64,000 nt of DNA from the NCBI GenBank assembly GCA_000091205.1, contig AP006492.2; one strand, 5' to 3'. Shown in pieces: positions 1,909 through 35,100 of the stretch. The position numbers and the translations under genes were made by a program. The notes beneath the pieces were generated by a model that worked only from the letters and a program-made list of their open reading frames with translations, was not told the DNA's origin and did no database searches. The number at the start of each line of letters is the position of its first letter. Position 1 is the stretch's first letter. Source of the stretch: Cyanidioschyzon merolae (Eukaryota).

Positions 1909-3182
1909 TTAGCAGTTGCGCGCAGAGCCGAAGCGCATCCTAGACTCTTTAGCATCAAATTCTGGAAGACCAGCATTGTTCACCAGCACGCTCGGAAAGT
2001 TGTTCCCGATGTATAGATACGGTGCTCCATTCTTGATGGATTGCTGAACCGACCCAAACCAATGCCTTGCTCCGGACGGAAATCCGCTGGTCTCTCTCCT
2101 CGCCACTGAAATCTTTTTTTCAAGGAAAGTCTTCAGCGTTTCTGCACAATGCGCTGACCAGGGACGAAACGATCGCCTCGAGCATTCTCACAATACAAAG
2201 CCGCTGGACGCTCAGGAAGCATGAAACATTTCGGGATGTTGTTCGAGGCGGTCAAGTCTCTGTGCAGTACGTGCTTGTACGCATAATCGAGGATGCAATC
2301 ACAGCATAGCGAGCCACTCGATTTCAATTGCCCTCGCCGGCTGACGTTTGTTCCGCTTACCGCACACCATCTCGTGTATTCGTCAAGGTTTTACGCTCCT
2401 GTTCTCGGCCAGTGTCAGCGTGCACCCCTGCTCTTTACCCGTGCATGTCAACATGAACGCATCAATAGGAAGCATCGGGATTGAATCGTGCTTTCGTTGG
2501 ATACTCTCGTCAATGGAGCGGGAATGCAATTATTTGGAAGCTGCAGCACGACCAGCGCCGCAGAATACCGCCAAGGGTGCCAAGCATTGGTCATTTTCAT
2601 CTCATAGCGATTGAACAAGTACGCGAAAGCACGCTTCTTTCATCCGCACAACCGAATGCGCTTTTATGCACTCGCACCAAAGATGTTCCGCATGAGCCAT
2701 TCGGACATGCGTGGCCTCTCTTAAGCTTACGTTCAAGACATTCGCGTGTTTCAGACACGTTGCTCAAAGCGTCGACATTTGGCCATAAATCCGCCATTCC
2801 ACGTGCTCGTATGCGTGCTGGCATCCATCGTGCCTGACTCTCGATGGTGCCGTACCCTGGAAAGTCATGTCTTATTGCATCTTCTGTCCAGATCATCAGT
2901 TTTCGCACGTAGGTTTCTGTCGATAAATCCCCGAGGAATGTGAGAAGCTGGCATCCCTGCGTCCAGAACACCTATAAATCGTTGCCTGGTTAGCTCTGCC
3001 CAGGCGAGCGAAGCTTGGCGTGCCTTTCTCGTGGAAGACGCTGCGTCAACTTTCATGATGTCCTGCACGCTGCTTTTTGGTAGATTTTGCCCGTCGCTTT
3101 GTCTAGGTAGCGATGCCCTGAAACCCGATGCAGACTGGTCATAGCGCTCTGGCAGGTTGTCATTCCTGGCCTTACACTTCAT
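1909..3182 (-). pseudogene. Decayed protein-kinase-like fragment (several frames)
   Basis: Minus-strand ORF pieces contain 'LDYAYKHVLHRDLTASNNI' (kinase catalytic-loop HRDLxxxN-like) and a downstream 'ARHWFGSV' (subdomain IX-like), split across frames in a lower-GC, otherwise ORF-poor stretch. Confidence 0.2.
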
Positions 3183-6979: not shown

Positions 6980-9490
6980 GCACGTGCACGCCCGACACCG
7001 CCAAACGTCTTTCAAAAGAAAAACGGTGTCACCGGCGGTGTAGAGGCGGCGAAACCCGCCTTAGACTAGACGTCATTAACTAACTTGCAGACGCCTCCCC
7101 GTCTTTTTCGACCGGCCACCCACTACTGCTTCCCATTTCTTCTCATATAGTTCCACTTTCAGTGACTGTCCAACAAAGAGCTCTCTTGTCTGCTCTGGAG
7201 GTCTTGTCTCCAGCACCGCTCATTTCCTTATATTGATGGCAGCATTAAAGTCGCGGTTCACAAACTCCATACGTTTCTTGCCATCACTGGTTGCACTTAC
7301 TAATGCAAAGAGTCCACGAACTTTCGCCCTCCTTTCCATTAGCTCCTCCGTCAGCGGTCCGTACTTTGCTATGTCCTTAGGGCTCCGCTGGCACATTTTC
7401 ATCTCGACCCTCTGAAGTTTACAACCCAGCTCATGGTGTGTATAAGATGTTCGGAACTCGTCTGCAGGTATTGTAACAAAACGCCGTGCACACTCCTTGT
7501 ACGTTCTCGTCGTTGGAGCTGGCGGAGTCCCTTTTTGGGTCATCCAGTGCACCGCTCTGTGCGCTACGACGAGCCTTTGAGTCTTGTCCTCTTTCGAGGC
7601 GCTCAACTCATGGAAAAAGTTCGCGAATGCACGCTGCTTTCCACAATACAGATTCATACACAGACGAGCTCACATGGGCTTTGTATACTCCTCCCACAGC
7701 GCCTCCCAATGAGCAACACGAACTTCCATGAATTTCCGAAAAGCTGTAAAGTCCGCTCCTCGGCTCGTCACCTCGCTCATAGCTTCCAGGTGCTCTTTCA
7801 TTCCTGAATTCCACGTCTCAGTTTTCTTCCTCGCATTCATGGTTCCCGATTCCCGGTAATATCTCGCATTCGAGAGCTTGAACACACGCATGTCTTTCTG
7901 ACGTAATTTGCCGTCAGTACCGTCTTCCGCACGCTTGGGTGCAGCAAGGGCTAGGATGTTCGTGCTCCCAGGGTCAAGGCCAACGACCAAGTCGTTCTCC
8001 TGCACCTCCTGCGTCGCAGGAACTGTCTCCTTGTTTTCTCCATGCTTCGTCACGGGCGAAGCCGAAGGCATGATAGGATGATCCGCATTCAAGCGCCGAC
8101 ACTGTAAGCATATGGATACCCCATCGATATGGATGATCCCTGTGAATGCTTTTTTCGTGCTCGTATTGAGACGTTTGAAATAGAAGATAGTCTTCCAATG
8201 AGTCTCCCGGTTATCGCCGGTGAACTCTATCTGCCTTACATCGAATTCCAGACTGATCTCCATCATGATGCCGTAAAGGACTCTGGAGTCGATCGTCACG
8301 AAGCATGACTTGACGTTGCACAACTGAAAGACGTTGAAGCACTTGCCCTGAAGCGCAGTCTTCCGTTTCACCGACTCTTCACGTTTTCCCCGCTCAGCTC
8401 CATCTACGCCTTGCGTTCGAATTCTCGGTTCAGGAGCACGATATAGCGCAGGATGAGGGGATAACATCTTTTTTCATATCTGATACCCTCTCTGCTCGAT
8501 CGACCTGCCCCAAGACTGCACGATGCTCTTTAATAGCCGGACGGATTACAGAAGCTTCGTTTCTGCTTCGGCGTGACGTCTTCTCGTCGAAAAATTCGAT
8601 CTGCTGTTCGTGCTGGCGATAAGTCCTGATTTCATTGATGCTAGCCCACATCCCCTGGCGAGAGAGGTCGGGGTTCAGCGCAAACATAGTGCGTATCATG
8701 AAACGTTCGAAGTTCACGATCATATGGTTCTTCAGGTCCGTGAGGTACTTAATTGCCCCGCAGGTGTATATATTCGAGTCACGCTCGTGTCGAGTGCCGT
8801 CGAAGCGGAATTTGGAGCGATTTGCATGGAGGGCATGCGGTCGCTCAGTTTCCGTCGACGTTTCCTCTGTGCCAAGCCTCAGGTGACGAATAAAGGCCTG
8901 GTCGAAAAATTCTTCCGGAACCTGGACTGTTTTCATGTGCGTCACGTCCCGAAACATCTCCTTCACCAAATGCACTAGCCATGACGAAGCCTTTATAAAA
9001 CTCATAGAGTACGACTCGACGCAGTTTCTAATGGCGTCTCGTAACTTTTCCTCGTACGGATCCTTGATATGTCGACGAAGACAGGCTTTCGCCACCATCT
9101 CGTCGTACTGTCATCTTGCTCGCAGCCTTTGTCGTAGGGCCCCCTGCCTCAGCTTTTTCGTCTTTTCCAGTTCCTTTTTGCTCTGGCTGCCGGCGACTAC
9201 AGCCCTCAAAGATCCTCCACTTTCATTTCCATAACTCTTCTTTTTTTATGTTTTTGAGCAAAAACACACTTTGAACGCTTCTGCTATAAACCGCGAATAG
9301 TCACTTGAATCCACTCCCATGAGGGTCAAAGCACAATTGAACTGAAAAACTCTACCTTGCTACGACTTGAAAGCAAATACAACTTGCACGTTAGAACTAC
9401 AGATCAACGAATAGTCAGGATTGCGTTCCCTTTCAACGGCGATACGCGCGTCGTGTCTCATGGATGCCAGAGCTCTCGGGTGCGCGTATC
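6980..9490 (-). mobile_element. Fanzor/TnpB-like element, copy A (~2.5 kb)
   Basis: Alignable with copies B, C and D from the right end (~85 nt past the protein stop; homology with B ends about 6980) to the left end (about 9485). Carries the TnpB/Fanzor-like ORF listed below. Confidence 0.6.
7063..9098 (-). pseudogene. Fanzor1/TnpB-like RuvC nuclease ORF, copy A (~630 aa, interrupted)
   Basis: ATG at 9098, with an in-frame TGA four codons upstream. RuvC-I 'NDLVVGLDPGSTNILALA'. Cys/His cluster 'KECARRF...HHELGCKLQRVEMKMC'. RuvC-III 'KKRMEFVNRDFNAAINIRK'. Defects: one frameshift near 8430-8467; in-frame TGA at 7670-7672 aligned to Trp (TGG) in copy B; TGA at 7220-7222 directly after 'NIRK'; TAATGA near the conserved C-terminal extension. 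The shared stop TAA at 7063-7065 matches copy B. Confidence 0.6.
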
Positions 9491-10203
9491 GGCCACGCTA
9501 TGTAGAACAAAGAACAGAGACTCACTACTAACTCGCAACGAGATAACAATTTCTTTTCCCCACTATGATAAATGTTAAAAGTGGGCAACGGTTTCCGCAC
9601 TGTCGAACGTTTACCTTCTCGGCGGAAGGTCCCACGAGCCAGACGAGTCTGCCGGGCTAGTGCTTCGTGCACAAGCGAGCGACGAGTTCAGTGGCGAGAC
9701 CTGAGCAGCTCGTCCGCAACGTAGTTTATTCTGGGACTAGGATCGGGTAGCCTGCGTCTGGGCGTCACTCTTGTTGCAGTGGCCTCCTAGTATATCAATT
9801 CGGATTGCCGCCTGTACTAGGTCCGTCTGCGCTGCTTGCAGGCTCCCAGAATGATTATGAATCCCAGATCCCCATCAGGTGAAGCTTTCCTCGATCCGAC
9901 GCCCTCTGTGGTTTGGCAACGCCGTTCTGCCTCCCTGCAGCATCTGCCCAGAGGTTTAGGCGCCATCGCCGATGCTCAAAGCAGGCAATCGGCACACGAT
10001 AGAACATACGAAACGACCAGTACATCCGAGAGAAAGTATAAGTAATGGAACTAGAAGACAGGGCACAGCATAATAAGTGTCTTCCCGTTTGCCTGTGACG
10101 ATCCCGCAATCTGGGATCCATGGACCATAGAGACAATGTACAACCATGAAAAATACGGCCCAAGAGGCAGCCAGCGCATCCTTTTTGACCGTTATGTACA
10201 TAA

Positions 10204-17488: not shown

Positions 17489-18697
17489 CTAGGTCGCGTA
17501 GAGTACTTCAGCAGGCGAGTAATCGTCAAAAGCTCGCGGTGAGCGCCGATGCTCCAGTCGCAAGTGCTGGTGCACGTCCGGCCATACCTGCACACAATTT
17601 GGTCCATACGCTTCAGCAACAGCATGAACAGCTGTGTAGTACACCTGGTCAGTACGTACGAAGCACTTTTCACGGTTCAGGTGCGGTTTGCAAACGCGAT
17701 CAACGGGAGCGGCAGCACCTAGCCATGGCCTCCGGAGCGACGTCTGAGAGGCTTCGCTCCAGTTCAGAGCCGGTTCAATAACGTCGTAACGCCACCAGCA
17801 AGGCACTCGAACACTGCACAGGTTAATCGGTAGTTGTCTTTCAATGTCATCCAGCACATGCAGTACCGGGCTTTCCGGATTAGAGCGCAGCGCATTTTCG
17901 CTCGGAACGATGTACTCGTCCACATCTGCGAAAAGAATCCATTTGAATATGCCGCGATTCCGCCACAAACAATCGTTCATGGCTGCAATCTGAACATGAT
18001 TCCAGTGCACGCCCTTTGGTGGACGAAATGGCCACGCTATGATCGATACATTCGCAGGCACATCGGCGAGTCGCTCCGTCAATTCATCCCTAAGCTCCAT
18101 TATTCTGGAACCACAGGCATCCGGCTCATTGAGATAGATGAAAAAATTCCGAATGCCGACCCTTGTATGGTGTATGATCCACGACAGGAGGAGGCTCTGC
18201 GAAACGGAGCGTTCTACGTTGTTCGGCCGACGGTTCTCCTGAGACTCAGGGCGCAACCGCAGCATCGTCCAGGCAGCGAGATGTAACTGCTCGTTTGGAG
18301 CAGTTCCTTCGAAAGCATCGGCGTCTGGTTTGCACTGCAGAATGAGCACTTCGTTTTGCGGGTCTAGGCGTGGCGGGAGAACGCCACCGGGCGCACACCA
18401 CGTCGCTGCTGCTTGCTCTACAGTGCGCCGGTCCAGGGGCCCGCGAGCGCTCAAGACCAGCGTTTCAAGACCGTCACGTGACCGGAACCTGTCAAGGACG
18501 CGTAGCTTCGCGTAGGAGGTGATTCCTGTAGTCTCCTGGGTAAAACGGCATGCTTCTAGTATGGAAAGCGTGCGCTCGAGAGCATCGCCCGACCTGGAGT
18601 GAAGTAATACCAGGAGCGTCAGCAGCAGGACGCAACCGGACAGCAGTCTTCTCGGGAAACCTGTTCCAGACGCACCTCCGACACCAACAACAAACAT
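17489..18697 (-). CDS. Type II membrane glycosyltransferase, GT92 (DUF23)-like
   Basis: ATG at 18697 ('MFVVGVGGASGTGFPRRLLSGCVLLLTLLVLLHS' signal anchor). Luminal domain with a DxD-type motif in 'WILFADVDEYIVP', GT92-like. Its start codon lies inside sequence homologous to the Fanzor right end of copies A and C. Confidence 0.45.
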   Translation of the reverse strand: MFVVGVGGASGTGFPRRLLSGCVLLLTLLVLLHSRSGDALERTLSILEACRFTQETTGITSYAKLRVLDRFRSRDGLETLVLSARGPLDRRTVEQAAATWCAPGGVLPPRLDPQNEVLILQCKPDADAFEGTAPNEQLHLAAWTMLRLRPESQENRRPNNVERSVSQSLLLSWIIHHTRVGIRNFFIYLNEPDACGSRIMELRDELTERLADVPANVSIIAWPFRPPKGVHWNHVQIAAMNDCLWRNRGIFKWILFADVDEYIVPSENALRSNPESPVLHVLDDIERQLPINLCSVRVPCWWRYDVIEPALNWSEASQTSLRRPWLGAAAPVDRVCKPHLNREKCFVRTDQVYYTAVHAVAEAYGPNCVQVWPDVHQHLRLEHRRSPRAFDDYSPAEVLYAT

Positions 18698-21286
18698 CTC
18701 CCAAAAGAAAAACGTTGTGACCGCCAGTGGTGTACAGTAGTGGCGAGTGCTCCGCCTTAGACTAGACGTCGCCAACTGACGAGCTGATGCCTTCCAGTCT
18801 TTTTCGACCGGCCACCTACAACGGCTTCCAATTTTTTCTCATATAATCCCACTTTGAGTGGTTGTCCCTTAAAATTCTCTCTTGACAGCTGTGGAGGTTT
18901 TTTCTCCATCACCGCGCATCTCCTGATATTGATGGCGGTGTTAAAATCTCGGTTCACAAACTCCATACGTTTCTCGCCATTGTTGGTACTCACCAATGCA
19001 AGCAATCCTCGAACTTTCGCCATCCTTTCCATCTGCTCCTCCGTCAGCGGTCCGTATTTTCTTATCCTCAGGGCTCCTCATGCACATTCCTACCTCCACT
19101 CTCTGAAGTAGACACCCCAGCTCATGGTGTGTATACGACGTTCGAAACTCACCTACAGGTATTGTTACAAAGCGCCTTGCGCACTCCTTATACGCACTCG
19201 TCGTTGGAGCTGGCGTAGTTCCTTTTTGGGTCTTCCAGCGCCCTGCTCCGTATGCTACTACGAGCCTCTGACTTTTTTTATCCTCCTTCAAGGCGCTCAT
19301 CTGATTGAAAACGTTCGCAAATGCCCGCTGCCTCTCTCCGTATAGACTCATACGCAGACGAGCCCACCGGGGCATGGTATACTCCTTCCACAGTGCGTCC
19401 CAATGGGCAACGCGAACTTCCATGAATTTCCGAAAAGCAGTAAAGTCCGCTCCTCAGCTCGTGATCTCCCTCATAGCTTCGAGGTGATCCTTCATTCCTG
19501 CATTCCACCTCTCATTTGTCTTCCTTGCATTCATTATATCCGATTCTAGACAGTATCTCGCTCTCGAGAACCTCAAAAGACGCATGTCTTTCTGAGGTAA
19601 GTTGCCGTCAGTACCATCATCCGCACGCTTGGGAGCAGCGATGGTTATGATATTCGTATTCCCAGGGTCCGCGCCGACGACAAAGTCGTTATCTTGCACC
19701 TCCTGCGTCGCAAGATCCGCCTCCTTCTTTTCTGCATTCTTCGCCGCGCCAACGAAAGTCGTTATCCTGCACCTCCTGTGCCGCAGGATCCGCCTCCTTC
19801 TCACATTCATGGTTCGTCACGGGCGCAGCCGAGGGCGGGACTGGACGATCTCTCTTCAACCGCCGATAGTGTATACACAAGGCTACTCCATCGGTATCGA
19901 TCATCCCAGTGAGTACCTTTTGTTTGCTCACCCTCAGACGTTTGAAATCGAAGATATTCTTCCAGAACGTCTCCCGGTTTTCACCGTAGAATTCCTCCCT
20001 GCTAACATCGAACTCCGGACTGATCTCCTTCATGATGCCATGAAGGACTGCGGAGTCGATACTCACAAAATGTGACTTGATGGTGCACATCGGAACGATG
20101 TAGAAGCGCTTACCCATCAGGAAAGCCTTCCGTCTGTCCCAGTCTTCAGTTTTCCCCACTCAGCTTCATTTCTGCCTTGCGTTCGAGTTCTCGGTCCAGA
20201 AACACGAAATAACATAGGATGAGGCGATAGTATCTTCCCTTATCTTTTTCAACGCTGATATCTTGTCTGTTGGATTCGGCAGCCCCATGACTGCACGGTG
20301 CTCTTGTATATCCGCACGGATGACGGAGACCTTATTCGTGCTCTGGTTTGACGCCTTCTTGTCGACAAATTCGACGTCATCTTCACGCTTGCGATCGTTC
20401 GTGATGCCATTGATAATCGCTGATATTCCTTTGGGACAGATGCCCGGGTAGAGTGCAAACAAGGCGCGTATCATGTAACGTTCGAGGTTCACTGTCAAAT
20501 TGTTCTTCAGGTTCGCGGTATACTTTATCGCCCCGTATATGTAAATACCCCGGTCACCGCTTTATCGATTACTCTCGAGGCGGAATTCCGCCAAGTTTTC
20601 GTGGAGGGCATGCACTGGCTCATTTTCCCCCGCGCTTACTCTGTACCAAGCATCAGCTGACGAATAAACGTCGCATCGAAAACGCCGTCCGGGAACCTCG
20701 ACCGTTTCCATGTGCGTCACTTCGCGATACATCTCCCTCGCCAAATGCATCAGTCCTGACGAGGCCTTGACAATACTCTTGGAGTACGAGTCGATACGTT
20801 TTTCGATAGCGTTTCGCTAGTGTTCCCTGTAAGGATCCTTGATATGTTTAAGAAGAAAGGTTTTCACCAGCATCTCGTTGTACGGTTGTAGTTCTTGCGG
20901 CCATCGACTTGGGATATCCCCTTTTTGCGTTTTCTTCTTATGCTGTTCTTCTGAACTCGGTACTGTTTTTTTCTTTTCTGGCAGCCAGCGACACTGGGGC
21001 GTCAGGATCGCCGACTTGCTTTTTCATAACATCCTTTTTTTGTTTTTTTTTGAAAAGAACGCTCCATCAACGCCTCTGATATAGACCGCTAAATATCACT
21101 TGGATAAACTAAATTGAGCGTTGAAACATAATTGACCTGAAAAGTGTACTCTGTTATGACTTTAACGAATATACAACTTGTAATTGAGAGCAACACGCTC
21201 AAGATCGCGATCGCGTTTCCCTTCACCAACGACATGCGCGTGGTGTCTCATACCTGCCAGATATGGAGGTGCGCGTATCGACCGCT
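18672..21286 (-). mobile_element. Fanzor/TnpB-like element, copy B
   Basis: Right end about 18672, left end at 21286, where LINE sequence starts. Over roughly 18890-21040 it is about 98-99% identical to copy C (offset +10177). Its left end differs from the left ends of A, C and D. Confidence 0.6.
18757..20871 (-). pseudogene. Fanzor1/TnpB-like nuclease ORF, copy B (multiple frame breaks)
   Basis: Fragments align colinearly to copy A: N-terminus 'MLVKTFLLKHIKDPYREH*' (in-frame TAG), RuvC-I '[18 protein letters not shown]', Cys/His cluster, RuvC-III 'MEFVNRDFNTAINIRR', then a 60-aa extension ending '...VVGGRSKKTGRHQLVSWRRLV*'. Contains an internal ~57-bp tandem duplication ('QEVQDNDF' twice) and several in-frame stops. 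Confidence 0.6.
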
Positions 21287-22570
21287 ATAATCCCTTGGCA
21301 CACGGACTCGAACTCCAAATACCCTCGACAGAAGGTATAGCAGCAGGCTGCCGGGTACGTATATGGGCCAAAGGGCCCGCCATGCGCACCTCTTTGAGTC
21401 GGATTTTCATGCAGACCCCTACGCACCTCAAGAACACTTGGACGAAATTGACGCAGATTGGGCTGAAGCGCCTATTAGACGAACATACGCTCCCCAATCG
21501 TTCCCCAGGAATGTACAAGGCTCCCGCCGCCTCAAGCGAACGGTCCAAACAACAATATGGGAACGTAGACACGGAACCAGTCGCGCCAGTAACGCCGGCT
21601 TGATCCTATACCGGAGCTACAACCTAGCATACACATGCAAGTACTGGTGGGAGGCGCTGGAATTCCCGGGACTTGCTCGAGGTACCCAGTGGCTCGCCAA
21701 AATCCGCGTTGGTGGCTTCTGGCTAGCGGCACCGGCTCTAAGCCGTATAGGGACACTGGAATCGCACTGGGAGTCACACTGTCCCTGCTATCGAGACGAT
21801 AACCCCGAGACGCTGACATATTTAGGCTTACAGTGCCCGCGCTGGAAGCAGGAGCGCAGCGAGCTCCTTGAAGGACAGCAGCAGCTGGGCATCACCATGA
21901 TATCCGAGGGCCGGACACTCACTTTGAGAGCAGCACTGGCAACTGATGGTCCGCTAACAGATCCTCAGCGCTCATTAGTGGCGAACAAACTCACATGCTA
22001 CCTTCCAAGCGGAAGGTCCAGCGGATCGGATGCGCACACGGGCCCAGTGCTCTCTGCGCCTACCTTCTGTATGGGTGTCAAACACAAACCCGCATTGCCA
22101 ACCGACGACAACGCATTCCATGCATGATCACGAAAGAGAGAGGCGGCTCCCACGATATATCCTAACAGTCAAGTTTCTCCAGCGTGTCGAGCAGCGAAGA
22201 CAAGCCTGCATCCGCAGACTGTCCGAGCACACACTGACGACGAGACCCGATTCTACGTCGGGTGAAGCGCACCTTGAGCCGACGCCCTCTGGGGTATAGA
22301 AAAGCCGTTCTGTCTCCATGATGCATCTGTACCAAAGGTAAAGACGCTATTGCGGACAATTAGGACAGGTTCTGGGCACACGATAGGACGTATGAGATGA
22401 CCAGAATATCCGAGATGAAGGATAGGTAATTTGACGTGGAGGTACGGGGGTTGATGGATACCCCACCGCGCACTGTAAAAAAATAACGCAAAAAGTAAGA
22501 AAAGAAAAATGCGCACAATCGGAGAACGCTGGCCCAAGTAAACGCGTTGTCCGTGAAAAAGGACTCATCG
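21287..22570 (+). mobile_element. Non-LTR retrotransposon (LINE) 3' fragment: C-terminal RT/zf-RVT region plus 3' UTR
   Basis: About 93% aa identity to the 3' part of the longer minus-strand LINE at 31400-35100 (ORF 21363..22127 versus 31844..32614). Starts abruptly at the copy-B left end. Its 3' UTR extends further than in the inverted copy; the exact 3' end (before 22700) was not resolved. Confidence 0.6.
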
Positions 22571-24189: not shown

Positions 24190-27100
24190 TTGGTCTTTGT
24201 TTGGGACGATCTCGCTCGATGCGGGGAATCATGTCGAGTCACGAGAGTTTCCAGCAGAGCACGTCTGGTTGCACCGGAATCTCAGGATTGTCTCGAGCAC
24301 AGCGACAGGATTTTCTGCATCATTTGGATGTTGGTTCGTTTGGCGCATAAACGACTTGATGAGCAAATGCACCGTCACACCAGTATCCAAGTTAGTGTCT
24401 GACCAATCAGCAGGGACAGGAGCAAACGGGCGCGTCGTTCGTCAACCGCGTGCATCACCGGCTCTCCTCAACCGAAAACATGCATAAGCCGCAAATGCAC
24501 TATAGAATGTCTTACTGCACATTGGAATACCGTGGTTGTTCCCAAATTGCCCAGCGGAATCGTACACTTTGTCCATAAACGGTGCTCTGGCCTCGCTGGA
24601 TTGCTGAAACGTACCATATCAGTGTCTTGCGCTTGGTTGTAATCCCGTACCCTCCTTCATAATCGCTGATTTCTTTCATCGAAAGTCTTCAGAATTTGCC
24701 CACAATGCCCTCATGGAATACGAAACGATTTTCCCGAAACATCGCTCAATAGAAAGTTCTTGGACGCTCCACGAGCACAAAACGCTTCCGCATGTTAATC
24801 GCGGCGTTGAACTCAAGGAACACGAAGTGCTCGTGCGCACCGTTGCGGGTGGAATCTCATCATGGTACACTCTACGTTTTCGATTGTCTCACCATTTGAC
24901 GATAGCTCAGCATACTGCACACCATCCGATACATCCGGTTCTGTGCCACGCTGTTTTCATCGAACACTTTCAGCGCACAAGTGTGCTATTGATGTGTTTT
25001 TGCCATCCTGACATATCGATGGGATTCGTATCGAATCGATTCCAGCACTTTTTCTCGTTAGCGTCGAGGAGGCAGGGTTGCTGCATTTGGGCACCGCAGC
25101 TCGTTCGGCGTCCTAGACTAGCACGAAACGACGCTACTTTCCAACCCAATGAACAAGTAAGAAAGTGCGCGTTACATTCTGCCACATAACCTGGTTCATC
25201 TCCGACTCCAGCGCTCACTCATTTCCTCCCGCAAAAAGCCTTCGCTTGAACCATTTGGATGCTCGTGTTCTTTCTGATTGAGGCGTACAAAGCACAACGT
25301 CCTGCTCGATGTGGTACTCATTGCATCGAGCTGGGTCCCGAAGCTGCCACCTCACGTGTTCGTATGGCGCCTGGTATCCATCATATTCGACTGTCGAAGA
25401 CGTCGAGCCGTGGGAAAGTAAGGATGTATTGAAAGCCTGTCTCGAGCATCATTTCCGTTGTCTCAAGAAAAACTGGATCGGAACTGTTCCGGAGAATTGT
25501 GGACAGCTGGCAGCCGTGTGTCCGAAACGCCTACGAGCATTTGCTTGTTGAGGGACGTTACAGCGAAATATGCTTGGGGGGCATCCCTCGAGTAAGAGGG
25601 AACGCGATCCCTGCCAGTGCCCCGCTTCTCATGTTTGAGAGGATTCCCGCGATTGATACGTTTTCAGACGGAGACCTTGCCAAGGATTTCAGACCGATTT
25701 TTCCATTCCAACTCTTTGCGCTCTTTGTGTGTCCTCGCCTCTTTTTGAAACAATTATCCCCATCTTAGGCTGGTGGGTTCTTCCGCTCCTCCGTTACTTG
25801 GTGGAGTATCATGTATGTAGTCGCGATGCTCCATATTCGTTTTCGCGTGATTTAGAGGTACAGGCTCTACGATGCCATTAAAGCTGACGTTTTCTGCCTA
25901 CGTTGCTATTAGTTCTTCGATAAAGTTTGGCTATCTGTTGCGCTGCGAGCTCGCTGATGGACAGAGAGGTGCCCTTCGGTTCGCTCCCGCGCAACAGAAG
26001 AGGAGCAACGCAGCAGTTCACTACTTGTGACATCACAGAACGACTAGTCGAAGGACGAATGTGCGCGCTTCAGCGTCGCAGATGCGAACGATTCTTTTAT
26101 GTATCTGTGTGCGTAAGCATTGCATCGGACAACAAGGAGGACGCCTCTGACTGGAATCAGCCCGGGGCAAATGGATGGCATGATGCGCAGCTCAACACAC
26201 GTTTCAGCTGCATTCTTGTTGAAGGCTTTTGAGCAACAAAGTGCGAATTCGTCTGACAGCAGGACAGAAAATTTTGTGGAAAAGAAGCCGCGAAGACTGC
26301 TTCATTGAAGAATGAGATAACGAATGATTACGATCGGTCAGCGTTTTGCAGACGAACGCACTATAGGATTGCCGCTAGAGCTGGTGTTGTCTGAATGCTC
26401 GCCCACGTTTTCTTTACGAACAGCGGTCTGCTTATCTTTTTGGCATCAATGTACATTTCTACCATTTTTCTTGAATACAAACGTATCCTTTGCGATGCAC
26501 ACATGGCCCTGATGTGATGAAGATTCGCGTTTTGTTAAAAACGCGATAGTATGTTGTCCAACGCGCGACGGTCCCGCATAGAGGCTTTGGTTTTCCTTAG
26601 TTCTTCCGCGTCGCTTTACTGCCGGTCCCATCATCGATACGGAAACATCAAATTCCGGAGATTTTTGGTATATTTTTCATTGAATTCGCATGGAGCGGAA
26701 CATATTGACGAAGAGGAAGTGGTGCAGATAGTGTTTTATGAATTATGTTTTGGTTGAATGCGGTTCGGGATATTGACCACGAGAAGGCCTGTCCATCCAG
26801 ATGCTGACTACATAGTAACTGACTCGCTCTTGTAAGGTCGTTTGTTGGCGGGCTAGTTGTGACTACATTGGGTCTTTCTGCATCCTCTATCGCGTTTATG
26901 ATACACATTCCTTCTGTTCAATTTCTGCGACAGAAACAAACGAAAACAAAAAAGCCTCACAGACTTGGATATTCCAGAAATCAGTGCTCCGAGCATCGGG
27001 CATCGACGAACAGAGGCATTGCGGCGTGCATCAGTCGTGGTTACTGCACACAAGCCCTCAGGTTCCAGTTGGATTATTTTGTCTGATGCGCAGAAGCAGC

Positions 27101-28849: not shown

Positions 28850-31400
28850 TCCGCGGCACCCCACGCAACGCGCCAACAACGCCGTTCTGAACTCGAACGA
28901 CGTCGAACGTGTACTGTATTGGCGACCAGTGCTCTAGACAAGAAGTCTCCAACTGATGTGCAGAGACCTCTCAGTTTTCTTGGACCGGCCACCTACTACG
29001 GCTTCCAACCTTTTCTCATATAATTCCACTTTGAGCGGTTGTCCCTTAAAATTCTCTCTTGTCAGCTGTGGAGGTTTTTTCTCCATCACCGCGCATCTCC
29101 TGATATTGATGGCGGTGTTAAAATCTCGGTTCACAAACTCCATACGTTTCTCGCCATTGTTGGTACTCACCAATGCAAGCAATCCTCGAACTTTCGCCAT
29201 CCTTTCCATCTGCTCCTCCGTCAGCGGTCCGTATTTTTTTATCCTCAGGGCTCCTCATGCACATTCCTACCTCCACTCTCTGAAGTAGACACCCCAGCTC
29301 ATGGTGTGTATACGACGTTCGAAACTCACCTACAGGTATTGTTACAAAGCGCCTTGCGCACTCCTTATACGCACTCGTCGTTGGAGCTGGCGTAGTTCCT
29401 TTTTGGGTCTTCCAGCGCCCTGCTCCGTATGCTACTACGAGCCTCTGACTTTTTTTATCCTCCTTCAAGGCGCTCATCTGATTGAAAACGTTCGCAAATG
29501 CCCGCTGCCTCTCTCCGTATAGACTCATACGCAGACGAGCCCACCGGGGCATGGTATACTCCTTCCACAGTGCGTCCCAATGGGCAACGCGAACTTCCAT
29601 GAATTTCCGAAAAGCAGTAAAGTCCGCTCCTCAGCTCGTGATCTCCCTCATAGCTTCGAGGTGATCCTTCATTCCTGCATTCCACCTCTCATTTGTCTTC
29701 CTTGCATTCATTATATCCGATTCTAGACAGTATCTCGCTCTCGAGAACCTCAAAAGACGCATGTCTTTCTGAGGTAAGTTGCCGTCAGTACCATCATCCG
29801 CACGCTTGGGAGCAGCGATGGTTATGATATTCGTATTCCCAGGGACCGCGCCGACGACAAAGTCGTTATCTTGCACTTTCGGGGTCACAGGACCCGCCTC
29901 CTTCTTTTCTGCATTCTTCGCCGCGCCAACGAAAGTCGTTATCCTGCACCTCCTGTGCCGCAGGATCCGCCTCCTTCTCACATTCATGGTTCGTCACGGG
30001 CGCAGCCGAGGGCGGGACTGGACGATCTCTCTTCAACCGCCGATAGTGTATACACAAGGCTACTCCATCGGTATCGATCATCCCAGTGAGTACCTTTTGT
30101 TTGCTCACCCTCAGACGTTTGAAATCGAAGATATTCTTCCAGAACGTCTCCCGGTTTTCACCGTAGAATTCCTCCCTGCTAACATCGAACTCCGGACTGA
30201 TCTCCTTCATGATGCCATGAAGGACTGCGGAGTCGATACTCACAAAATGTGACTTGATGGTGCACATCGGAACGATGTAGAAGCGCTTACCCATCAGGAA
30301 AGCCTTCCGTCTGTCCCAGTCTTCAGTTTTCCCCACTCAGCTTCATTTCTGCCTTGCGTTCGAGTTCTCGGTCCAGAAACACGAAATAACATAGGATGAG
30401 GCGATAGTATCTTCCCTTATCTTTTTCAACGCTGATATCTTGTCTGTTGGATTCGGCAGCCCCATGACTGCACGGTGCTCTTGTATATCCGCACGGATGA
30501 CGGAGACCTTATTCGTGCTCTGGTTTGACGCCTTCTTGTCGACAAATTCGACGTCATCTTCACGCTTGCGATCGTTCGTGATGCCATTGATAATCGCTGA
30601 TATTCCTTTGGGACAGATGCCCGGGTAGAGTGCAAACAAGGCGCGTATCATGTAACGTTCGAGGTTCACTGTCAAATTGTTCTTCAGGTTCGCGGTATAC
30701 TTTATCGCCCCGTATATGTAAATACCCCGGTCACCGCTTTATCGATTACTCTCGAGGCGGAATTCCGCCAAGTTTTCGTGGAGGGCATGCACTGGCTCAT
30801 TTTCCCCCGCGCTTACTCTGTACCAAGCATCAGCTGACGAATAAACGTCGCATCGAAAACGCCGTCCGGGAACCTCGACCGTTTCCATGTGCGTCACTTC
30901 GCGATACATCTCCCTCGCCAAATGCATCAGTCCTGACGAGGCCTTGACAATACTCTTGGAGTACGAGTCGATACGTTTTTCGATAGCGTTTCGCTAGTGT
31001 TCCCTGTAAGGATCCTTGATATGTTTAAGAAGAAAGGTTTTCACCAGCATCTCGTTGTACGGTTGTAGTTCTTGCGGCCATCGACTTGGAATATCCCCTT
31101 TTTGCGTTTTCTTCTTATGCTGTTCTTCTGAACTCGGTACTGTTTTTTTTCTTTTCTGGCAGCCAGCGACACTGGGGCGTCAGGATCGCCGACTTGCTTT
31201 TTCATAACTTCCTTTTTAAGTTTTTATAAATCAGCCCTCCGTGAACGCTTCTGTTATATACTGAGAAAAACAATCGAATATTTTCACTTGAGGGTTGAAA
31301 CACAATCGAACTGAAAACTATACATGCCTATGAAGTTAACAAAAATACAACTTTGACATTAGAGCTACATGCTAGATATCAAGATCACGTTTCCCTTTAA
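28850..31400 (-). mobile_element. Fanzor/TnpB-like element, copy C
   Basis: Near-identical to copy B over about 29067-31217. Its left end is about 55 nt shorter than in A and B and abuts the 3' UTR of the minus-strand LINE at about 31400. The right end lies about 30 bp upstream of the exosome-subunit ATG. Confidence 0.6.
28934..31048 (-). pseudogene. Fanzor1/TnpB-like nuclease ORF, copy C (frame breaks; RuvC-I Asp replaced)
   Basis: Same fragment set as copy B. RuvC-I reads '[15 protein letters not shown]' (Asp to Val). RuvC-III 'NRDFNTAINI' is retained. C-terminal extension '...RSKKTERSLHISWRLLV*'. Confidence 0.6.
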
Positions 31401-34400
31401 CGGCGGCATGTTTTTCATTAACAACGCGTTTACTTGGGCCAGCGTTCTCCGATTGTGCGCATTTTTCTTTTCTTACTTTTTGCGTTATTTTTTTACAGTG
31501 CGCGGTGGGGTATCCATCAACCCCCGTACCTCCACGTCACATTACCTATACTTCATCTCGGATATTCTGGTCATCTCATACGTCCTATCGTGTGCCCAGA
31601 ACCTGTCCTAATTGTCCGCAATAGCGTCTTTACCTTTGGTACAGATGCATCATGGAGACAGAACGGCTTTTCTATACCACAAAGGGCGTCGGCTCAAGGT
31701 GCGCTTCACCCGACGTAGAATCGGGTCTCGTTGTCAGTGTGTGCTCGGACAGTCTGCGGATGCAGGCTTGTCTTCGCTGCTCGACACGCTGGAGAAACTT
31801 GACTGTTAGGATATATCGTGGGAGCCGCCTCTCTCTTTCGAGATCATGCATGGAATGCGTTGTCGTCGGTTGGCAATGCGGGTTTGTGTTTGACACCCAT
31901 ACAGAAGGTAGGCGCAGAGAGCACTGGGCCCGTGTGCGCATCCGATCCGCTGGACCTTCCGCCTAGAAGGTAGCACGTGAGTTTGTTCGCCACTAATGAG
32001 CGCTGAGGCTCCGTTAGCGGACCATCAGTTGCCAGTGCTGCTCTCAAAGTGAGTGTCCGGCCCTCGGCTATCACGGTGATGCTCAGCTGCTGCTGTCCTG
32101 CAAGGAGCTCGCTGCGCTCCTGCTTCGAGCGCGGGCACTGTAAGCCTAAATATGTCAGCGTCTCCGGGTTATCGTTTCCGCAGCAGGAACAGTGTGACTC
32201 CCAGTGCGATTCCAGTGTCCCTATACGGCTTAGAGCCCGTGCTGGTAGCCAGAAGCCACCAACGCGGATTTTCGCGAGCCACTGGGTACCTCGAGCAAGC
32301 CCCGGAAATTCCAGCACCTCCCACCAGTACTTGCATGTGTATGCTAGGTTGTAGTTCCGGTATAGAGTCAAGCCGGCGTTACTGGCGCGACTGGTTCCGT
32401 GTCTACGTTCCCATATTGTTGTTTGGACCGTTCGCTTGAGGCGGCGGGAGCCTTGTACATTCCTGGGGATCGATTGGGGAGCGTGTTGTCTCCTAAGAGG
32501 CGCTTCAGCCCAATCTGCGTCGATTTCATCCAAGTGTTCTTGCGGTGCGTTCGGGTCTGCATGAAAATCCGACTCAAAGAGGTGCGCGTGGCGGGCCCTT
32601 TGGCCCGTATACATGCCCGGCAGCCTGCTGCTATCGCTTCTATTGAGAGTATTTGGAGTTCAAGTCCGAGTGCCAGCGCGGTGGTTGCCCTGCTCTGCAT
32701 TGAGCATCCAACAACAACGAGTCTCATTGCCCCGTTGGCGGCTGTCTGCGGACGCGAGGCATTTGTGTGCTTCATGCCGCACCACTCAGCACCCCAGGTC
32801 GCAGGCTGGGTGATACACATCCTTAGTGCCCTCGTACGAATTGCTATGCGGATAGAGGGGTCGGATGGGAATGAGCGTGCGATCGCTGTACCTCTATGCA
32901 TCTTGGCGATCATCTCGTCGACGTGTGCCTTTTCGTCGAGCGTCGGCGTGAGACCGACCCCCAGGTAGCGATATTTTTCCACGATCGGGATTTCCGGATT
33001 CTGCAACCGCCACGAGCGATTGCGAATGCTCTGCGAGTCTCCATGGATGACCATGACGCCGCACTTCGATGCTCCTATGCTCATCTCCCAGCGATCGGCC
33101 CAGTCGCTGACTTGTTGCATGCTAGCCGCAAGCGTTTCAGGGGCGGGTGCCAACAGCACGACATCGTCCGCAACTAGACGGCCTGCGAGGCGGTTCCTAT
33201 GTGAGGGCTCCTCATCGGGCATCTCCACAGTCTATCCACGGCACCTCAAGCCCGTATTGTCTGCAGTTGTTCAGCAGATCGTTGATGAAGATGTTGAAAA
33301 GGAGCGGGGATGCGCGCTCGCCCTGCCGCAGTCCACGGCGGATTCTTCTGGAAGGGGTTCTTGAGCTGTCGCCCAGTCGGATGCGCATCCATGAGTCTGC
33401 ATAGAGCGCACGGAAGAACGCTAAGCACTTTCCGGAGACTCCGGCGCGTTCCATCTTCAGAAATGGAGCCTCGTGCGGGACCGTGTCAAAGGCCTTTTGA
33501 AAGTCAATGAAGCATACGTAAGTTGGTTGTTGGCCGCTAATGGAGCGACGTTGCACCACTTCAGTTAGGGTCAGGACATGGCTCATGCACTCCTCGTGGC
33601 TCCGGAATCCAGCCTGTTCTGGGGCGAAGAACTTGCGTTCCTGGAGGCCTCTCTGGATCCGGTTCGTGGGAATGGCGCAAAGTAGCTTCATGATTGACGG
33701 GATGAGGCGCATAGAGCGGTAGTTGTTCATGTCTGTGTGGGAGTCCTTTTTGAGGATCGGTACGACCTCAGCAGTCCTCCATACATCCGGGATGTACGCC
33801 TCTTCGAACATGCGTTGGATGAGCTCCACAAGGCGTTTGCCTAAGCTTGTGTCAGATTCATCTGGTATTGATGGTGTCCCTGTTGTCCCGTCTTTTGGGG
33901 TCACCAGTTTCATCCACTCCGCAGGGATACCGTCGATGCCAGGTGTTTTGCGGTTGCATGACCTTAAGAGGGTCCGGACAGATTCAGGCCAGAAGATTGG
34001 GTCGTTCCATTCCGGTACCGATTCGAGGCGCGGTAGTTCTGCGGCATACTGGTGCCAATAGATTGGGTCTTGGCAGTGCCCAGTTGCTTCTTCATGCAGC
34101 TCTGTGCCGTGGTCCGTCCAGGCCTCATTCACTGAGGCACGCTCCGTCCTCAGCGCTTCCTCATAAACGATTGGTGTGAGCCCCAGGCACTTTTTTGGTG
34201 GGTCCAGTCTCGGTCGAATGTAGCGCCAGGTCTCATCTTCGTTGGTGCTCTCTAGCATAGATTTCGCCAGGGAGGCGATTTCGCGGTTTCGATCCTCTCG
34301 TTTGTCTTCTCTGGAAAGTTTCTTCTTTCTTTTGATAGCTTCTTCATGTTGCGCCTGTAGCGCCGTTAGGACTGCCTTCGCTTCCTTGTCTCCGGCGTTG

Positions 34401-35100
34401 ACGCGTATGGCGGTGTGGTTGACGATCTGATAGAGTCGGTGGCGCTCGTCAATCCGGGTATTGGTACGTCGTTTCAGGCACTGAGGTTTGCAACTGTTGC
34501 GTTCTGGTGCAAGCAGTCCCAGCTCTCCGGCAATCTTCTGATTCCCATCTACAAACTCGCGTGCCAATTGGTCTAAAGATTTGTATGCACGGCTTTTCGG
34601 ATCTTCAGCGCTGTGAGTAGGTGACTTGGTTTGGCGACGGCTTTCTTGAGTTCCTGCTGGGGTGCTCTTTCGGGGACGACTTGTGATGGGCTCGCTGGAG
34701 CCCCCGCCTGTGGGCTCGTTCGGGAGTTCTTCTTTCTATTCTTCTGTTTTTCTCTTGCTGGTTTGCTTCTTCATCGGGCTCTTTCCTGAGCTACATTCTC
34801 TGGTTACTTTGCATCTAGGTGGATCATGAGGTTTCTGTGTCTCCTTCTCCGTGTCTGGTTGGGTCTCTTTTCCTTTTGTACAGTCCTCGACTTGTATCAG
34901 TTCTTCATTACTGTACTGGTAATTCGATATCTCGTAGTTCAATACCGAGGCGATCCCACAAATATTCCATGATGCGAAACCTATCGAGTCGTAGCGCATA
35001 AGGGAATAGGAGTAACGCTGCGGTACTCGAGAGATACGTTGTCGATTGAGATGCACCCTCCACGGAGTGTGTGAGAGCACATGCCACCAGCGCCTCCTAC
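31400..35100 (-). mobile_element. Non-LTR retrotransposon (LINE), longer copy, lacking most of the endonuclease domain
   Basis: Minus-strand ORFs 33212..34567 and 32368..33228 carry reverse-transcriptase motifs. ORF 31844..32614 carries a zf-RVT-like 'HWESHCSCCGNDNPETLTYLGLQCP'. Near 34970 there is an APE-like remnant ('FASWNICGIAS') with no following endonuclease domain. Its 3' UTR (about 31400-31843) is the inverted repeat of 22128-22570. Confidence 0.6.
31844..34567 (-). pseudogene. LINE ORF2-like reverse transcriptase (frameshifted into three pieces)
   Basis: RT blocks: 'YRSMRLIPSIMKLL', 'PEQAGFRSHEECMSHVL', 'CFIDFQKAFDTVPHE', 'GLRQGERASPLLFNIFINDL' and a YxDD-like region; C-terminal zf-RVT. 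Reading-frame breaks at 33212-33228 and 32368-32614. Confidence 0.55.

What the first reader, a model, noticed from the sequence alone, without database searches (positions are those of the whole stretch)
6980..9490. Eukaryotic Fanzor/TnpB-like (OMEGA-family) RNA-guided-nuclease element family, four copies in 64 kb
Four minus-strand ~2.5 kb elements sit at about 6980-9490, 18672-21286, 28850-31400 and 60650-63185. Each encodes a colinear ~630-aa protein with the TnpB/Cas12/Fanzor RuvC signature: RuvC-I 'VVGLDPGSTNI' or '[11 protein letters not shown]', a Cys/His cluster ('KECARRF...HHELGC...C'), and a near-canonical RuvC-III 'NRDFNAAINI' or 'NRDFNTAINI'. Where the canonical RuvC-II glutamate would sit I see 'QRLVVAHRAVHW' / 'QRLVVAYGAGRW', with no Glu. 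The context is unambiguously eukaryotic (Rpn13, exosome subunit, Mia40, SURP factor, LINE RT), and the length is in the Fanzor1 range rather than bacterial TnpB or short Fanzor2. All four copies are interrupted: A by nonsense codons, B and C by frame breaks, D by loss of catalytic residues. So this is a sizeable, probably recently active but now decaying family in an organism I cannot name from the sequence.
Basis: partly seen in the sequence, partly recalled or inferred. Interest (0 to 1): 0.9.

Follow-up and report, generated by a model that had tools for sequence, protein, structure and literature searches.

The report
Decayed Fanzor1 transposon copies, red alga

Summary
Four minus-strand ~2.5 kb repeats lie at 7004-9502, 18693-21290, 28878-31410 and 60660-63176. 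Two older remnants lie at 2136-2864 and 24749-24856.

The Fanzor1 reading also holds. A 115-sequence family profile hits only solved Fanzor1 structures in the PDB (E 3e-21 to 1e-8). An AlphaFold model of an intact 676-aa homologue (pLDDT 92.5) matches Fanzor1 cryo-EM structures over its full length (TM 0.55-0.73). The missing RuvC-II glutamate is the known Fanzor rearrangement: the alternative Glu sits in 'DEFRTS', about 40 residues downstream.

The host is Cyanidioschyzon merolae 10D. Bao and Jurka (2013) described this family there as CMe-1A: about 150 copies, about 80% identical to consensus, no TIRs, TSDs undetermined, class unknown. The finding is therefore already known.

All four copies are pseudogenes, each with several frameshifts and stops. 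Copy C has also lost the RuvC-I Asp, and copy D has lost both Asp motifs. 'Recently active' is not supported.

New details from 71 related metagenome loci:
- a sharp 3' end closed by an 8-11 bp hairpin;
- no CxxC zinc finger;
- only 5' truncations;
- recurrent joins of the 5' end to LINE/SINE-like sequences.

These features hint at a copy-out mode of spread, which remains unproven.

The parts
7004..9502 (-). Copy A, Fanzor1 unit (5' leader, ORF from about 9232 to the stop at 7076-7078, 3' tail). Pseudogene with at least 2 frameshifts and at least 4 stops; the catalytic motifs are still readable.
7955..7987 (-). Copy A RuvC-I motif VVGLDPGSTNI (the DPG signature of Fanzors).
   Evidence: aligned to the DPG of PpFz/SpuFz
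7544..7579 (-). Copy A QRLVVAHRAVHW, the position of the canonical RuvC-II strand. It has no Glu, as in all Fanzors.
7421..7468 (-). Copy A PADEFRTSYTHHELGC. It holds the alternative catalytic Glu (Ealt) followed by a degenerate, Cys-poor remnant of the zinc-finger position.
7229..7258 (-). Copy A RuvC-III motif NRDFNAAINI.
7006..7025 (-). Copy A 3'-terminal hairpin (CGTTTTTC-TTTT-GAAAGACG), ending 2 nt before the unit's 3' boundary. It is the candidate last stem of the omega-RNA scaffold or a DNA end signal.
6986..7003 (-). G/T-rich, A-poor tail after the 3' boundary of copy A (TGGCGGTGTCGGGCGTGC). Similar GGTG-containing tails follow most copies.
9503..10153 (+). About 650-bp repeat joined head-to-head to copy A. 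It probably corresponds to TE-N2_CMe of Bao and Jurka. It shares a 170-nt stretch and the ...ATGAAAAA 3' end with the LINE.
18693..21290 (-). Copy B, a pseudogene (frames -3, -1, -2, with stops). RuvC-I at 19649-19681, Ealt at 19112-19159, RuvC-III at 18925-18954.
21296..22560 (+). 5'-truncated LINE fragment (end of ORF2 with a CCHC-like motif, plus the 3' UTR) joined head-to-head to copy B. The same junction occurs in metagenome locus L006.
28878..31410 (-). Copy C, 96% identical to B. Pseudogene with the RuvC-I Asp lost ([11 protein letters not shown], 29826-29858). The first ~54 nt of the unit are missing.
31411..35100 (-). LINE (reverse-transcriptase ORFs 31844-34567) whose exact 3' end (...AATGAAAAA) abuts the 5' side of copy C, tail-to-head. 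Its 5' limit was not determined.
60660..63176 (-). Copy D, the most decayed. DPG is replaced by YSW (61609-61641) and RD by RA (60883-60912), with many frameshifts and stops and the terminal hairpin lost.
63177..63863 (+). TE-N2-like repeat joined head-to-head to copy D, ending ...GATGAAAAA.
2136..2864 (-). Old remnant of a second Fanzor1 subfamily (P0036-like C-terminus: NNIPKCFMLPERPAALY...).
24749..24856 (-). Old remnant holding a RuvC-III motif (FLEFNAAINMRK). The surrounding 24579-24926 is 66% identical to 2019-2371.

Best explanation
The four repeats are degenerate copies of the Fanzor1-encoding repeat family of Cyanidioschyzon merolae, published as element CMe-1A with protein CMe-1.

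Each unit is about 2.5 kb. It holds a ~260-nt leader, one intronless ORF of roughly 650-750 aa, and ~70 nt of 3' sequence closed by a terminal hairpin. The ORF has a basic N-terminus, helical REC/WED parts, and a split RuvC domain with DPG, the alternative Glu in DEFRTS, and RDxNAAxNI.

When intact, the protein would bind an omega-RNA transcribed from the 3' end of its own gene. The scaffold of that RNA would end at the unit boundary and the guide would run into the flank. The complex would cut DNA that carries a short TAM next to a sequence matching the guide, which helps the element persist or spread.

Shown here: the repeat family, its borders, homology to Fanzor1, the Fanzor1 fold of an intact relative, the catalytic signature, the terminal hairpin, and the pseudogene state of all copies in the window.

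Inferred, not shown: the omega-RNA, the TAM, nuclease activity, and how the unit moves. In this window nothing can still make a working nuclease.
For: Repeat family.

Host: a window ORF is the exact C. merolae 10D protein BAM80401.1.

Published description: CMe-1A has about 150 copies, about 80% identical to consensus, about 3 kb long, without TIRs.

Homology:
- The window copies match the family HMMs at E 1e-42 to 1e-124.
- The 115-sequence profile hits only Fanzor1 chains in the PDB: 9cf0 at 3.4e-21, 8gkh at 5.8e-16, 9cer at 1.3e-8. The DPG, DEFRTS and NRDxNAA columns are aligned.

Fold: the AF2 model of P0036 (40% identical to copy A, 96% coverage) has pLDDT 92.5 and pTM 0.90. Its top 7 Foldseek hits are Fanzor1 structures (E 2e-17 to 1e-14, TM 0.55-0.73), followed by Cas12 proteins.

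Signature: DPG plus Ealt are the published Fanzor hallmarks.

Past selection on the protein: conservation by codon position is 0.93/0.94/0.81 in the RuvC region.

3' element:
- Homology among about 50 copies stops sharply after ...GGCGTT.
- An 8-11 bp terminal hairpin is present in 9 of 12 sequence variants, z -2.1 to -4.5.
- Codon periodicity vanishes in the last ~200 nt while conservation stays at 0.86.
Against: - No RNA data, so the omega-RNA is only inferred.
- RNAalifold found no consensus structure over the last 230 nt.
- Whole-tail folding z-scores are modest.
- Rfam has no match.
- No conserved TAM-like motif is visible 5' of the unit.
- The first 20 nt of the 3' flank are not random. 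They are A-poor, and GGTG occurs in 22 of 41 flanks against 3 of 41 controls. That is odd for a free guide region.
- The zinc finger found in the solved Fanzor1 proteins is missing.
- The local Pfam and NCBIfam copies give no significant hit for single sequences.
Confidence: 0.93

Rival explanations
1. The Fanzor unit is not a passenger of a cut-and-paste DNA transposon. It spreads as an RNA copied by LINE reverse transcriptase, by target-primed reverse transcription with template switching or twin priming. This would leave 5'-truncated copies and chimeras with LINE/SINE RNAs.
For: - Among about 90 copies, 15 (about 8 independent events) lack the 5' part but keep the exact 3' end. None keeps the 5' end and lacks the 3' end.
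- The exact 3' end of the LINE, or of a LINE-tailed ~650-bp repeat, is joined to the unit's 5' end. LINE portions are of different lengths in window copy C and in L017, L020, L023, L026, L034, L056 and L059.
- Head-to-head joins with the same repeats occur in A, D, B and L006.
- There are no TIRs and no TSDs.
- Variable simple-repeat-like G/T tails follow the 3' end.
Against: - The unit has no A-run, and its 3' end does not convincingly resemble the LINE tail (...ATGAAAAA).
- No TSDs flank the composites A, B and D.
- The commonest upstream class (U1, 13 loci) and class U5 show no LINE similarity.
- The B and L006 junctions are identical, so that composite was inherited rather than re-made.
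- A 2026 review states there is no evidence of retrotransposons carrying Fanzor and sees no selective logic for it.
- 5' truncation also occurs in rolling-circle elements.
Confidence: 0.15
2. The unit is a non-autonomous single-strand or rolling-circle DNA element, mobilised by an HUH enzyme that recognises the 3' hairpin. It would be Helitron2-like, as for the Chlamydomonas Fanzor1 elements, or IS200/IS605-like.
For: - A strong terminal 3' hairpin is kept through changes of stem sequence.
- There are no TIRs and no TSDs.
- 5' parts are heterogeneous while the 3' end is constant.
- Fanzor1 elements of Chlamydomonas are Helitron2 non-autonomous elements, and TnpB's native home is the hairpin-ended IS200/IS605.
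Against: - A 5' hairpin, which defines Helitron2, is not supported: only 3 of 8 copies fold one and z-scores are near 0.
- I saw no convincing asymmetric terminal inverted repeat.
- The ends are not TC...CTRR.
- The authors who defined Helitron2 in the same paper left CMe-1A unclassified.
- No Rep/helicase or Y1 transposase was seen in the window or in the loci examined, though this was not searched systematically.
Confidence: 0.3
3. The C-terminal 'D.NAA.NI' string is a coincidence and the ORF belongs to an unrelated family. Pfam files the homologues only as DUF8286.
For: - The precomputed Pfam label of the homologues is DUF8286.
- No single-sequence Pfam or NCBIfam hit was found.
- The shallow 14-sequence profile found nothing in the PDB.
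Against: - The deep profile and the structure model both point only to Fanzor1, over the full length and with all three catalytic motifs aligned.
- 10 of 43 family members touch the Cas12f1-like TNB model.
- The family was named Fanzor1 in 2013.
Confidence: 0.01

Closest known systems
Fanzor1 element CMe-1A / protein CMe-1 of Cyanidioschyzon merolae (Bao and Jurka 2013, Mob DNA 4:12)
   Same: Same organism and same kind of protein. It is multi-copy, about 80% identical between copies, has no TIRs and no detectable TSDs, and carries a ~635-bp repeat (TE-N2_CMe) on the 5' side. Copies A and D have this repeat.
   Different: I could not align to the Repbase consensus, so identity with CMe-1A rests on the description rather than a sequence comparison. 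Copies B and C carry LINE sequence instead of the TE-N2-like head. Remnants at 2136-2864 and 24749-24856 belong to a second, unreported-looking subfamily close to P0036.
Solved Fanzor1 nucleases SpuFz1 (8GKH), PpFz1 (9CF0) and GtFz1 (9CER)
   Same: Full-length fold match (TM 0.55-0.73). The profile hit covers the WED/REC/RuvC regions. It has the DPG RuvC-I motif, the alternative Glu in D-E-[FY]-x-T-S, and RuvC-III N-R-D.
   Different: Only 11-16% identity. The CxxC...CxxC zinc finger between Ealt and RuvC-III is absent in the window copies and in 45 of 53 parsed family members. The omega-RNA and TAM are unknown here.
Chlamydomonas reinhardtii Fanzor1 elements CRe-1/2/3 (Helitron2 non-autonomous; CrFNuc)
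   Same: An algal Fanzor1 in a multi-copy non-autonomous element with a 3' hairpin and a non-coding RNA mapped to the 3' end.
   Different: The CRe genes have 5-10 exons, whereas this unit is intronless. The CRe ends match verified Helitrons and have a 5' hairpin and ATIRs, which were not found here.
Bacterial TnpB of IS200/IS605 and IS607 (OMEGA systems)
   Same: RuvC-based, guided by an RNA from the 3' end of its own gene. IS200/IS605 likewise lacks TIRs and TSDs and has hairpin ends.
   Different: TnpB is about 400 aa, has the canonical RuvC-II Glu and D-hydrophobic-G at RuvC-I, and sits next to a TnpA gene. No transposase gene accompanies the unit here.

Membership tests
Fanzor1 | Significant sequence/profile similarity to established Fanzor1 proteins | tested here: met
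   The A6 profile against the PDB hits only Fanzor1 chains, E 3.4e-21, 5.8e-16 and 1.3e-8. The window copies match the same profile at E 1e-42 to 1e-63.
Fanzor1 | Fanzor1 three-dimensional architecture (extended REC/WED plus split RuvC) | tested here: met
   Tested on the intact homologue P0036, not on a window copy. The AF2 model has pLDDT 92.5. The Foldseek top 7 are SpuFz, PpFz and GtFz, TM 0.55-0.73 over about 670 columns.
Fanzor1 | RuvC-I motif D-P-G | tested here: met
   Copy A has LDPGS and copy B has ADPGN. It is near-invariant in the family. It is lost in C (AVPGN) and in D (LYSWN).
Fanzor1 | Canonical RuvC-II Glu replaced, with the alternative Glu about 40-45 residues downstream just before the zinc-finger position | tested here: met
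   QRLVVAHRAVHW and VxAYGxAKF lack Glu. The E of DEFRTS is at least 90% conserved and lies about 39 aa downstream in copy A.
Fanzor1 | RuvC-III R-D-x-N-A-A-x-N | tested here: met
   NRDFNAAINI in A and NRDFNTAINI in B and C. Lost in D (NRAFDAAIYF).
Fanzor1 | C4 zinc finger (CxxC...CxxC) between Ealt and RuvC-III (motif of Bao and Jurka; regular expression of Yoon et al.) | tested here: not met
   The window copies read THHELGC...GLFALVS. 45 of 53 parsed family members have neither CxxC pair. The literature says 'many', not all, Fanzors have it, so this marks a variant rather than an exclusion.
Fanzor1 | omega-RNA encoded at the 3' end of the gene, with its guide extending beyond the element end | not testable with these tools
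   Only indirect signs are available: a sharp 3' boundary, a terminal hairpin, and loss of codon periodicity with retained conservation. There are no RNA data, and RNAalifold gave no consensus.
Fanzor1 | RNA-guided, TAM-dependent DNA cleavage | not testable with these tools
   Needs biochemistry. All window copies are pseudogenes.
Fanzor1 | Residence in a eukaryotic nuclear genome as a multi-copy mobile element | tested here: met
   The host is C. merolae 10D. There are 6 copies or remnants in 64 kb and 71 related loci in metagenomes.
Fanzor2 / IS607-like | Short TnpB-like protein (~400-500 aa) with an adjacent serine recombinase | tested here: not met
   The protein is about 650-750 aa, no recombinase ORF lies in the unit, and the PDB and fold hits are Fanzor1.
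Helitron2 non-autonomous element | Hairpins at both ends plus short asymmetric terminal inverted repeats | tested here: inconclusive
   The 3' hairpin is present. A 5' hairpin folds in only 3 of 8 copies, with z near 0. No clear ATIR was seen by eye, and no systematic search was done.
LINE-dependent retroposon | 5' truncation with constant 3' end, TSDs, and a 3' tail shared with or recognised by the LINE | tested here: inconclusive
   The 5'-only truncation criterion is met, 15 against 0. TSDs were not found. The 3' tail is unlike the LINE's A-run end.

The most novel reading that the evidence does not exclude
In Cyanidiales the Fanzor1 gene may travel as a self-contained 2.5-kb unit that is copied out from its 3' hairpin end rather than cut and pasted. 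The most provocative version is reverse transcription by the resident LINE, with template switching onto LINE/SINE RNAs.

This would account for the exclusively 5'-truncated copies, the repeated exact joins between LINE/SINE 3' ends and the unit's 5' end, the head-to-head chimeras, the simple-repeat-like 3' tails, and the lack of TIRs and TSDs.

It would be the first Fanzor propagated by a retrotransposon, which a 2026 review explicitly says has not been seen.
Probability: 0.15. Interest if true: 0.65.

Novelty: already known. Interest (0 to 1): 0.22.

Why it matters
Fanzors are the eukaryotic RNA-guided DNA nucleases related to Cas12 and are of interest as compact genome editors. This window adds nothing new on that front. 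The family was reported in this very genome in 2013, and every copy here is dead.

The modest added value has four parts:
- The family, which Pfam still labels DUF8286, is tied to solved Fanzor1 structures by profile and fold.
- This large clade, with about 2000 representatives at 50% identity, mostly lacks the zinc finger.
- Intact relatives exist in other samples (P0036, P0056, P0058) and could be tested.
- The unclassified CMe-1A element has a defined hairpin-capped 3' end, 5'-only truncations and recurrent LINE/SINE joins. These narrow the possible transposition mechanisms.

Tried and rejected
- Single-sequence scans: Pfam and NCBIfam scans of a stitched copy-A protein and of homologues gave nothing significant.
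- Shallow profile: a 14-sequence profile found no Fanzor in the PDB. Only the 115-sequence profile did.
- First AF2 run: with 19 close sequences it was useless, pLDDT 40.
- RNA families: Rfam at gathering thresholds found no family in the window.
- Consensus RNA structure: RNAalifold on 39 aligned 3' ends predicted no pairs. Whole 105-114-nt tails fold only slightly better than shuffles.
- 5' hairpin: not better than chance.
- TSDs: a search of at least 6 nt around the composites A, B and D found nothing adjacent. A 10-mer shared between A's 3' tail and 10231-10240 lies 77 nt beyond the TE-N2-like repeat's end at 10153, and it is part of the recurrent GGTGTCGG tail motif, so it is not a TSD.
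- TIRs: none seen when comparing ends by eye. A repeat finder failed on strand syntax and was not repeated.
- LINE insertion into copy C: I looked for the missing first ~54 nt of copy C upstream of the LINE, to test a simple LINE insertion into a complete element, and did not find them.
- Introns as the cause of the frame breaks: rejected. C. merolae genes here are intronless, the breaks differ between copies, and intact relatives read straight through.
Full report

Yes. A blastn of the window against itself finds four related minus-strand segments: A 6986-9501, B 18672-21288, C 28872-31410 and D 60654-62830. A is 71-80% identical to B and C, D is 66-75% identical to the others, and B and C are 96% identical.

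- VVGLDPGSTNI at 7955-7987 and [11 protein letters not shown] at 19649-19681.
- QRLVVAHRAVHW at 7544-7579.
- DEFRTSYTHHELGC within 7421-7468.
- NRDFNAAINI at 7229-7258 and NRDFNTAINI at 18925-18954.

A profile search of the six-frame translation adds two older remnants on the same strand, at 2136-2864 and 24749-24856.

**2. What is the protein?**

Single-sequence searches were uninformative. The local Pfam and NCBIfam copies gave nothing.

The large protein database returned 55 close clusters, nearly all from JGI metagenomes. Their only precomputed label is PF26935/DUF8286. One of them, P0036, is an intact 676-aa relative that is 40% identical to a stitched copy A over 96% of its length.

An exhaustive profile search found 2042 representatives at E<=1e-3, most of them 600-650 aa. 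A 115-sequence alignment of these (A6) was then searched against all PDB sequences. It hit only three things, all Fanzor1:
- Parasitella parasitica Fz1, 9cf0, E 3.4e-21.
- Spizellomyces punctatus Fz1, 8gkh, E 5.8e-16.
- Guillardia theta Fz1, 9cer, E 1.3e-8.

In those alignments the family's DPG, DEFRTS and NRDxNAAxN columns sit on the corresponding Fanzor1 motifs. Ten of 43 family members also touch Pfam's Cas12f1-like TNB model.

With the same alignment, AlphaFold2 modelled P0036 at mean pLDDT 92.5 and pTM 0.90. An earlier run with a shallow alignment had failed. Foldseek against the PDB put seven Fanzor1 cryo-EM chains first (E 2e-17 to 1e-14, TM 0.55-0.73, about 670 aligned columns), followed by Cas12 proteins.

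The window copies match the very HMM that finds Fanzor1, at E 1e-42 to 1e-63.

**3. The 'missing' RuvC-II glutamate**

This is not a lesion. Jiang et al. 2023 and Yoon et al. 2023 showed two things:
- All Fanzors have an inert residue at the canonical position and use an alternative Glu about 45 residues downstream, six residues before the zinc finger.
- Fanzors have D-P-G at RuvC-I.

Copy A has DPG, and its DEFRTS Glu lies about 39 residues after QRLVVAHRAVHW. That Glu is at least 90% conserved in the family.

What is unusual is the zinc finger. The CxxC...CxxC pairs are absent from the window copies (THHELGC ... GLFALVS). They are also absent from 45 of 53 family members that could be parsed.

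**4. Host and prior knowledge**

The window ORF 47144-48274 is, residue for residue, dTDP-glucose 4,6-dehydratase BAM80401.1 of Cyanidioschyzon merolae 10D.

Bao and Jurka (2013) list one Fanzor1 family in this alga. [quoted passage not shown] TSDs were undetermined and there were no TIRs. The 5' 635 bp are 95% identical to another repeat, TE-N2_CMe, and the class is unknown.

This fits what is in the window, so the finding is already known. I could not compare with the Repbase consensus itself.

**5. State of the copies**

tblastn shows that A, B and C each need three reading frames. In detail:
- The C-terminal half of A is in one frame but has stops at ...YTKPM*ARL... and ...NIRK*AVL....
- B and C share their lesions.
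- C has additionally lost the RuvC-I Asp.
- D has lost DPG and RD and has about eight stops in the first 470 codons.

No NCBI-annotated C. merolae protein appeared among the homologues. 'Recently active' is not supported for this genome.

Conservation by codon position across 36 full copies is 0.93/0.94/0.81 in the RuvC region. The protein was therefore under purifying selection while the family diversified. Intact relatives exist elsewhere (P0036, P0056, P0058).

**6. Anatomy of the unit, from 71 related metagenome loci**

3' end:
- Homology among about 50 copies stops abruptly after ...GGCGTT, about 60 nt past the stop codon.
- The last 25 nt form an 8-11 bp hairpin in 9 of 12 sequence variants, z -2.1 to -4.5.
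- There are two different stem versions, CGTCGTTCGA/TCGAACGGCG and AACGTTTTTC/GAAAGGCGTT.
- Codon periodicity disappears over the last ~200 nt although conservation stays at 0.86.

This is what one expects if the 3' end doubles as an omega-RNA scaffold or as a DNA end signal. However, RNAalifold gave no consensus, Rfam gave nothing, and there are no RNA data.

3' flank:
- The first 20 flanking nucleotides are A-poor (13% against 21%).
- They contain GGTG in 22 of 41 independent flanks, against 3 of 41 controls.

5' end:
- The unit starts at a sharp boundary about 260 nt before the ATG.

**7. What lies upstream**

The sequence 5' of that boundary is itself repetitive and falls into classes:
- A ~650-bp repeat on the opposite strand that ends ...ATGAAAAA like the LINE. 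It is probably TE-N2_CMe. Window copies A and D have it.
- The exact 3' end of a LINE, or of that repeat, joined tail-to-head with LINE portions of different length. Window copy C and seven loci have it.
- An antisense internal LINE fragment with an identical junction in window copy B and in L006.
- Two further classes without LINE similarity.

Among about 90 copies, 15 (about eight independent events) lack the 5' part but keep the exact 3' end. None shows the reverse pattern.

No TSDs flank A, B or D, and a 5' hairpin is not supported.

**8. How it most likely works**

The supported core is a Fanzor1 gene with a 3' non-coding element, once producing an omega-RNA-guided RuvC nuclease. This rests on homology, fold and published biochemistry of relatives.

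The mode of spread is open. I rate the options as follows:
- A hairpin-dependent single-strand or rolling-circle mechanism, about 0.3.
- LINE-mediated retroposition, about 0.15.
- Undetermined, the remainder.

A 2026 review states that no retrotransposon is known to carry a Fanzor, so the second option would be new if true. The evidence here (5'-only truncation, LINE/SINE chimeras) is suggestive only. It is countered by the lack of TSDs and of a LINE-like tail.

**9. Verdict**

Novelty is nil for the main claim, because the same family in the same organism was published in 2013. Interest is low. There is a small residual interest in the zinc-finger-less clade and in the unresolved transposition mechanism.

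Noticed in passing
window 2136-2864 and 24749-24856 (minus strand); also 2019-2371 vs 24579-24926: Two further, much older Fanzor1 remnants. Their C-terminal peptide resembles the intact metagenomic protein P0036 rather than copies A-D, so a second subfamily is present. All six copies and remnants in the window are on the minus strand (chance about 1 in 32).
   Followed up: partly
window 19669-19728 / 19744-19801 and 29921-29978; loci L006 etc. (unit positions ~1475-1780): A ~75-nt (25-aa) tandem repeat (ATQEVEDNDLVVDxxKDEDEKEA) lies just upstream of the RuvC-I motif. Its copy number varies from about 1 to 6 between family members. Breakpoints of truncated or inverted copies cluster just before it (unit positions 1341-1451).
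   Followed up: partly
window 31411-~35100 (minus) and 21296-22560 (plus); 9875-10047: A LINE with reverse-transcriptase ORFs and a CCHC-like ORF2 end. Its 3' end reads ...GTTGTTAATGAAAAA. A 1265-bp 5'-truncated copy sits in the opposite orientation next to copy B, and a 170-nt LINE-3'UTR-like stretch lies inside the repeat next to copy A.
   Followed up: partly
metagenome loci L046 (1786-4304), L047/L048/L064 (20-1719), L061/L073 (1517-1928): Head-to-head inverted pairs of 5'-truncated Fanzor units occur, both arms truncated at nearly the same position (1383 and 1341 in L046). Solo 3' fragments of ~400 nt also occur just upstream of full units.
   Followed up: no
window 10225-10260: About 75-110 nt beyond the end (10153) of the repeat attached to copy A, the minus strand reads TTTGAAAAATTCGTGACGGCGGTGTCG. 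This resembles the 3' hairpin half plus the G/T tail of copy A (TTTGAAAGACGTTTGGCGGTGTCGG). It could be chance, a solo end, or a target-like site.
   Followed up: no
window 37283-42372; ORF 37554-43082 (+): A ~5-kb imperfect tandem array encodes an 1842-aa Ser/Ala-rich protein (units like [22 protein letters not shown]). It has a non-repetitive C-terminal domain and a predicted transmembrane stretch, and looks like a surface or mucin-like protein.
   Followed up: no
window 47144-48274 (minus): The dTDP-glucose 4,6-dehydratase sequence is shared exactly by at least three C. merolae accessions (BAM80401, BAM80649, BAM81944). The gene, and perhaps the region, is therefore duplicated in the genome.
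   Followed up: no
protein family level (A6; P0056-P0204): The family that Pfam calls DUF8286 has about 2000 representatives at 50% identity and is Fanzor1 by profile and fold. Most members lack the CxxC...CxxC zinc finger, so regular-expression surveys that require it would miss them.
   Followed up: partly
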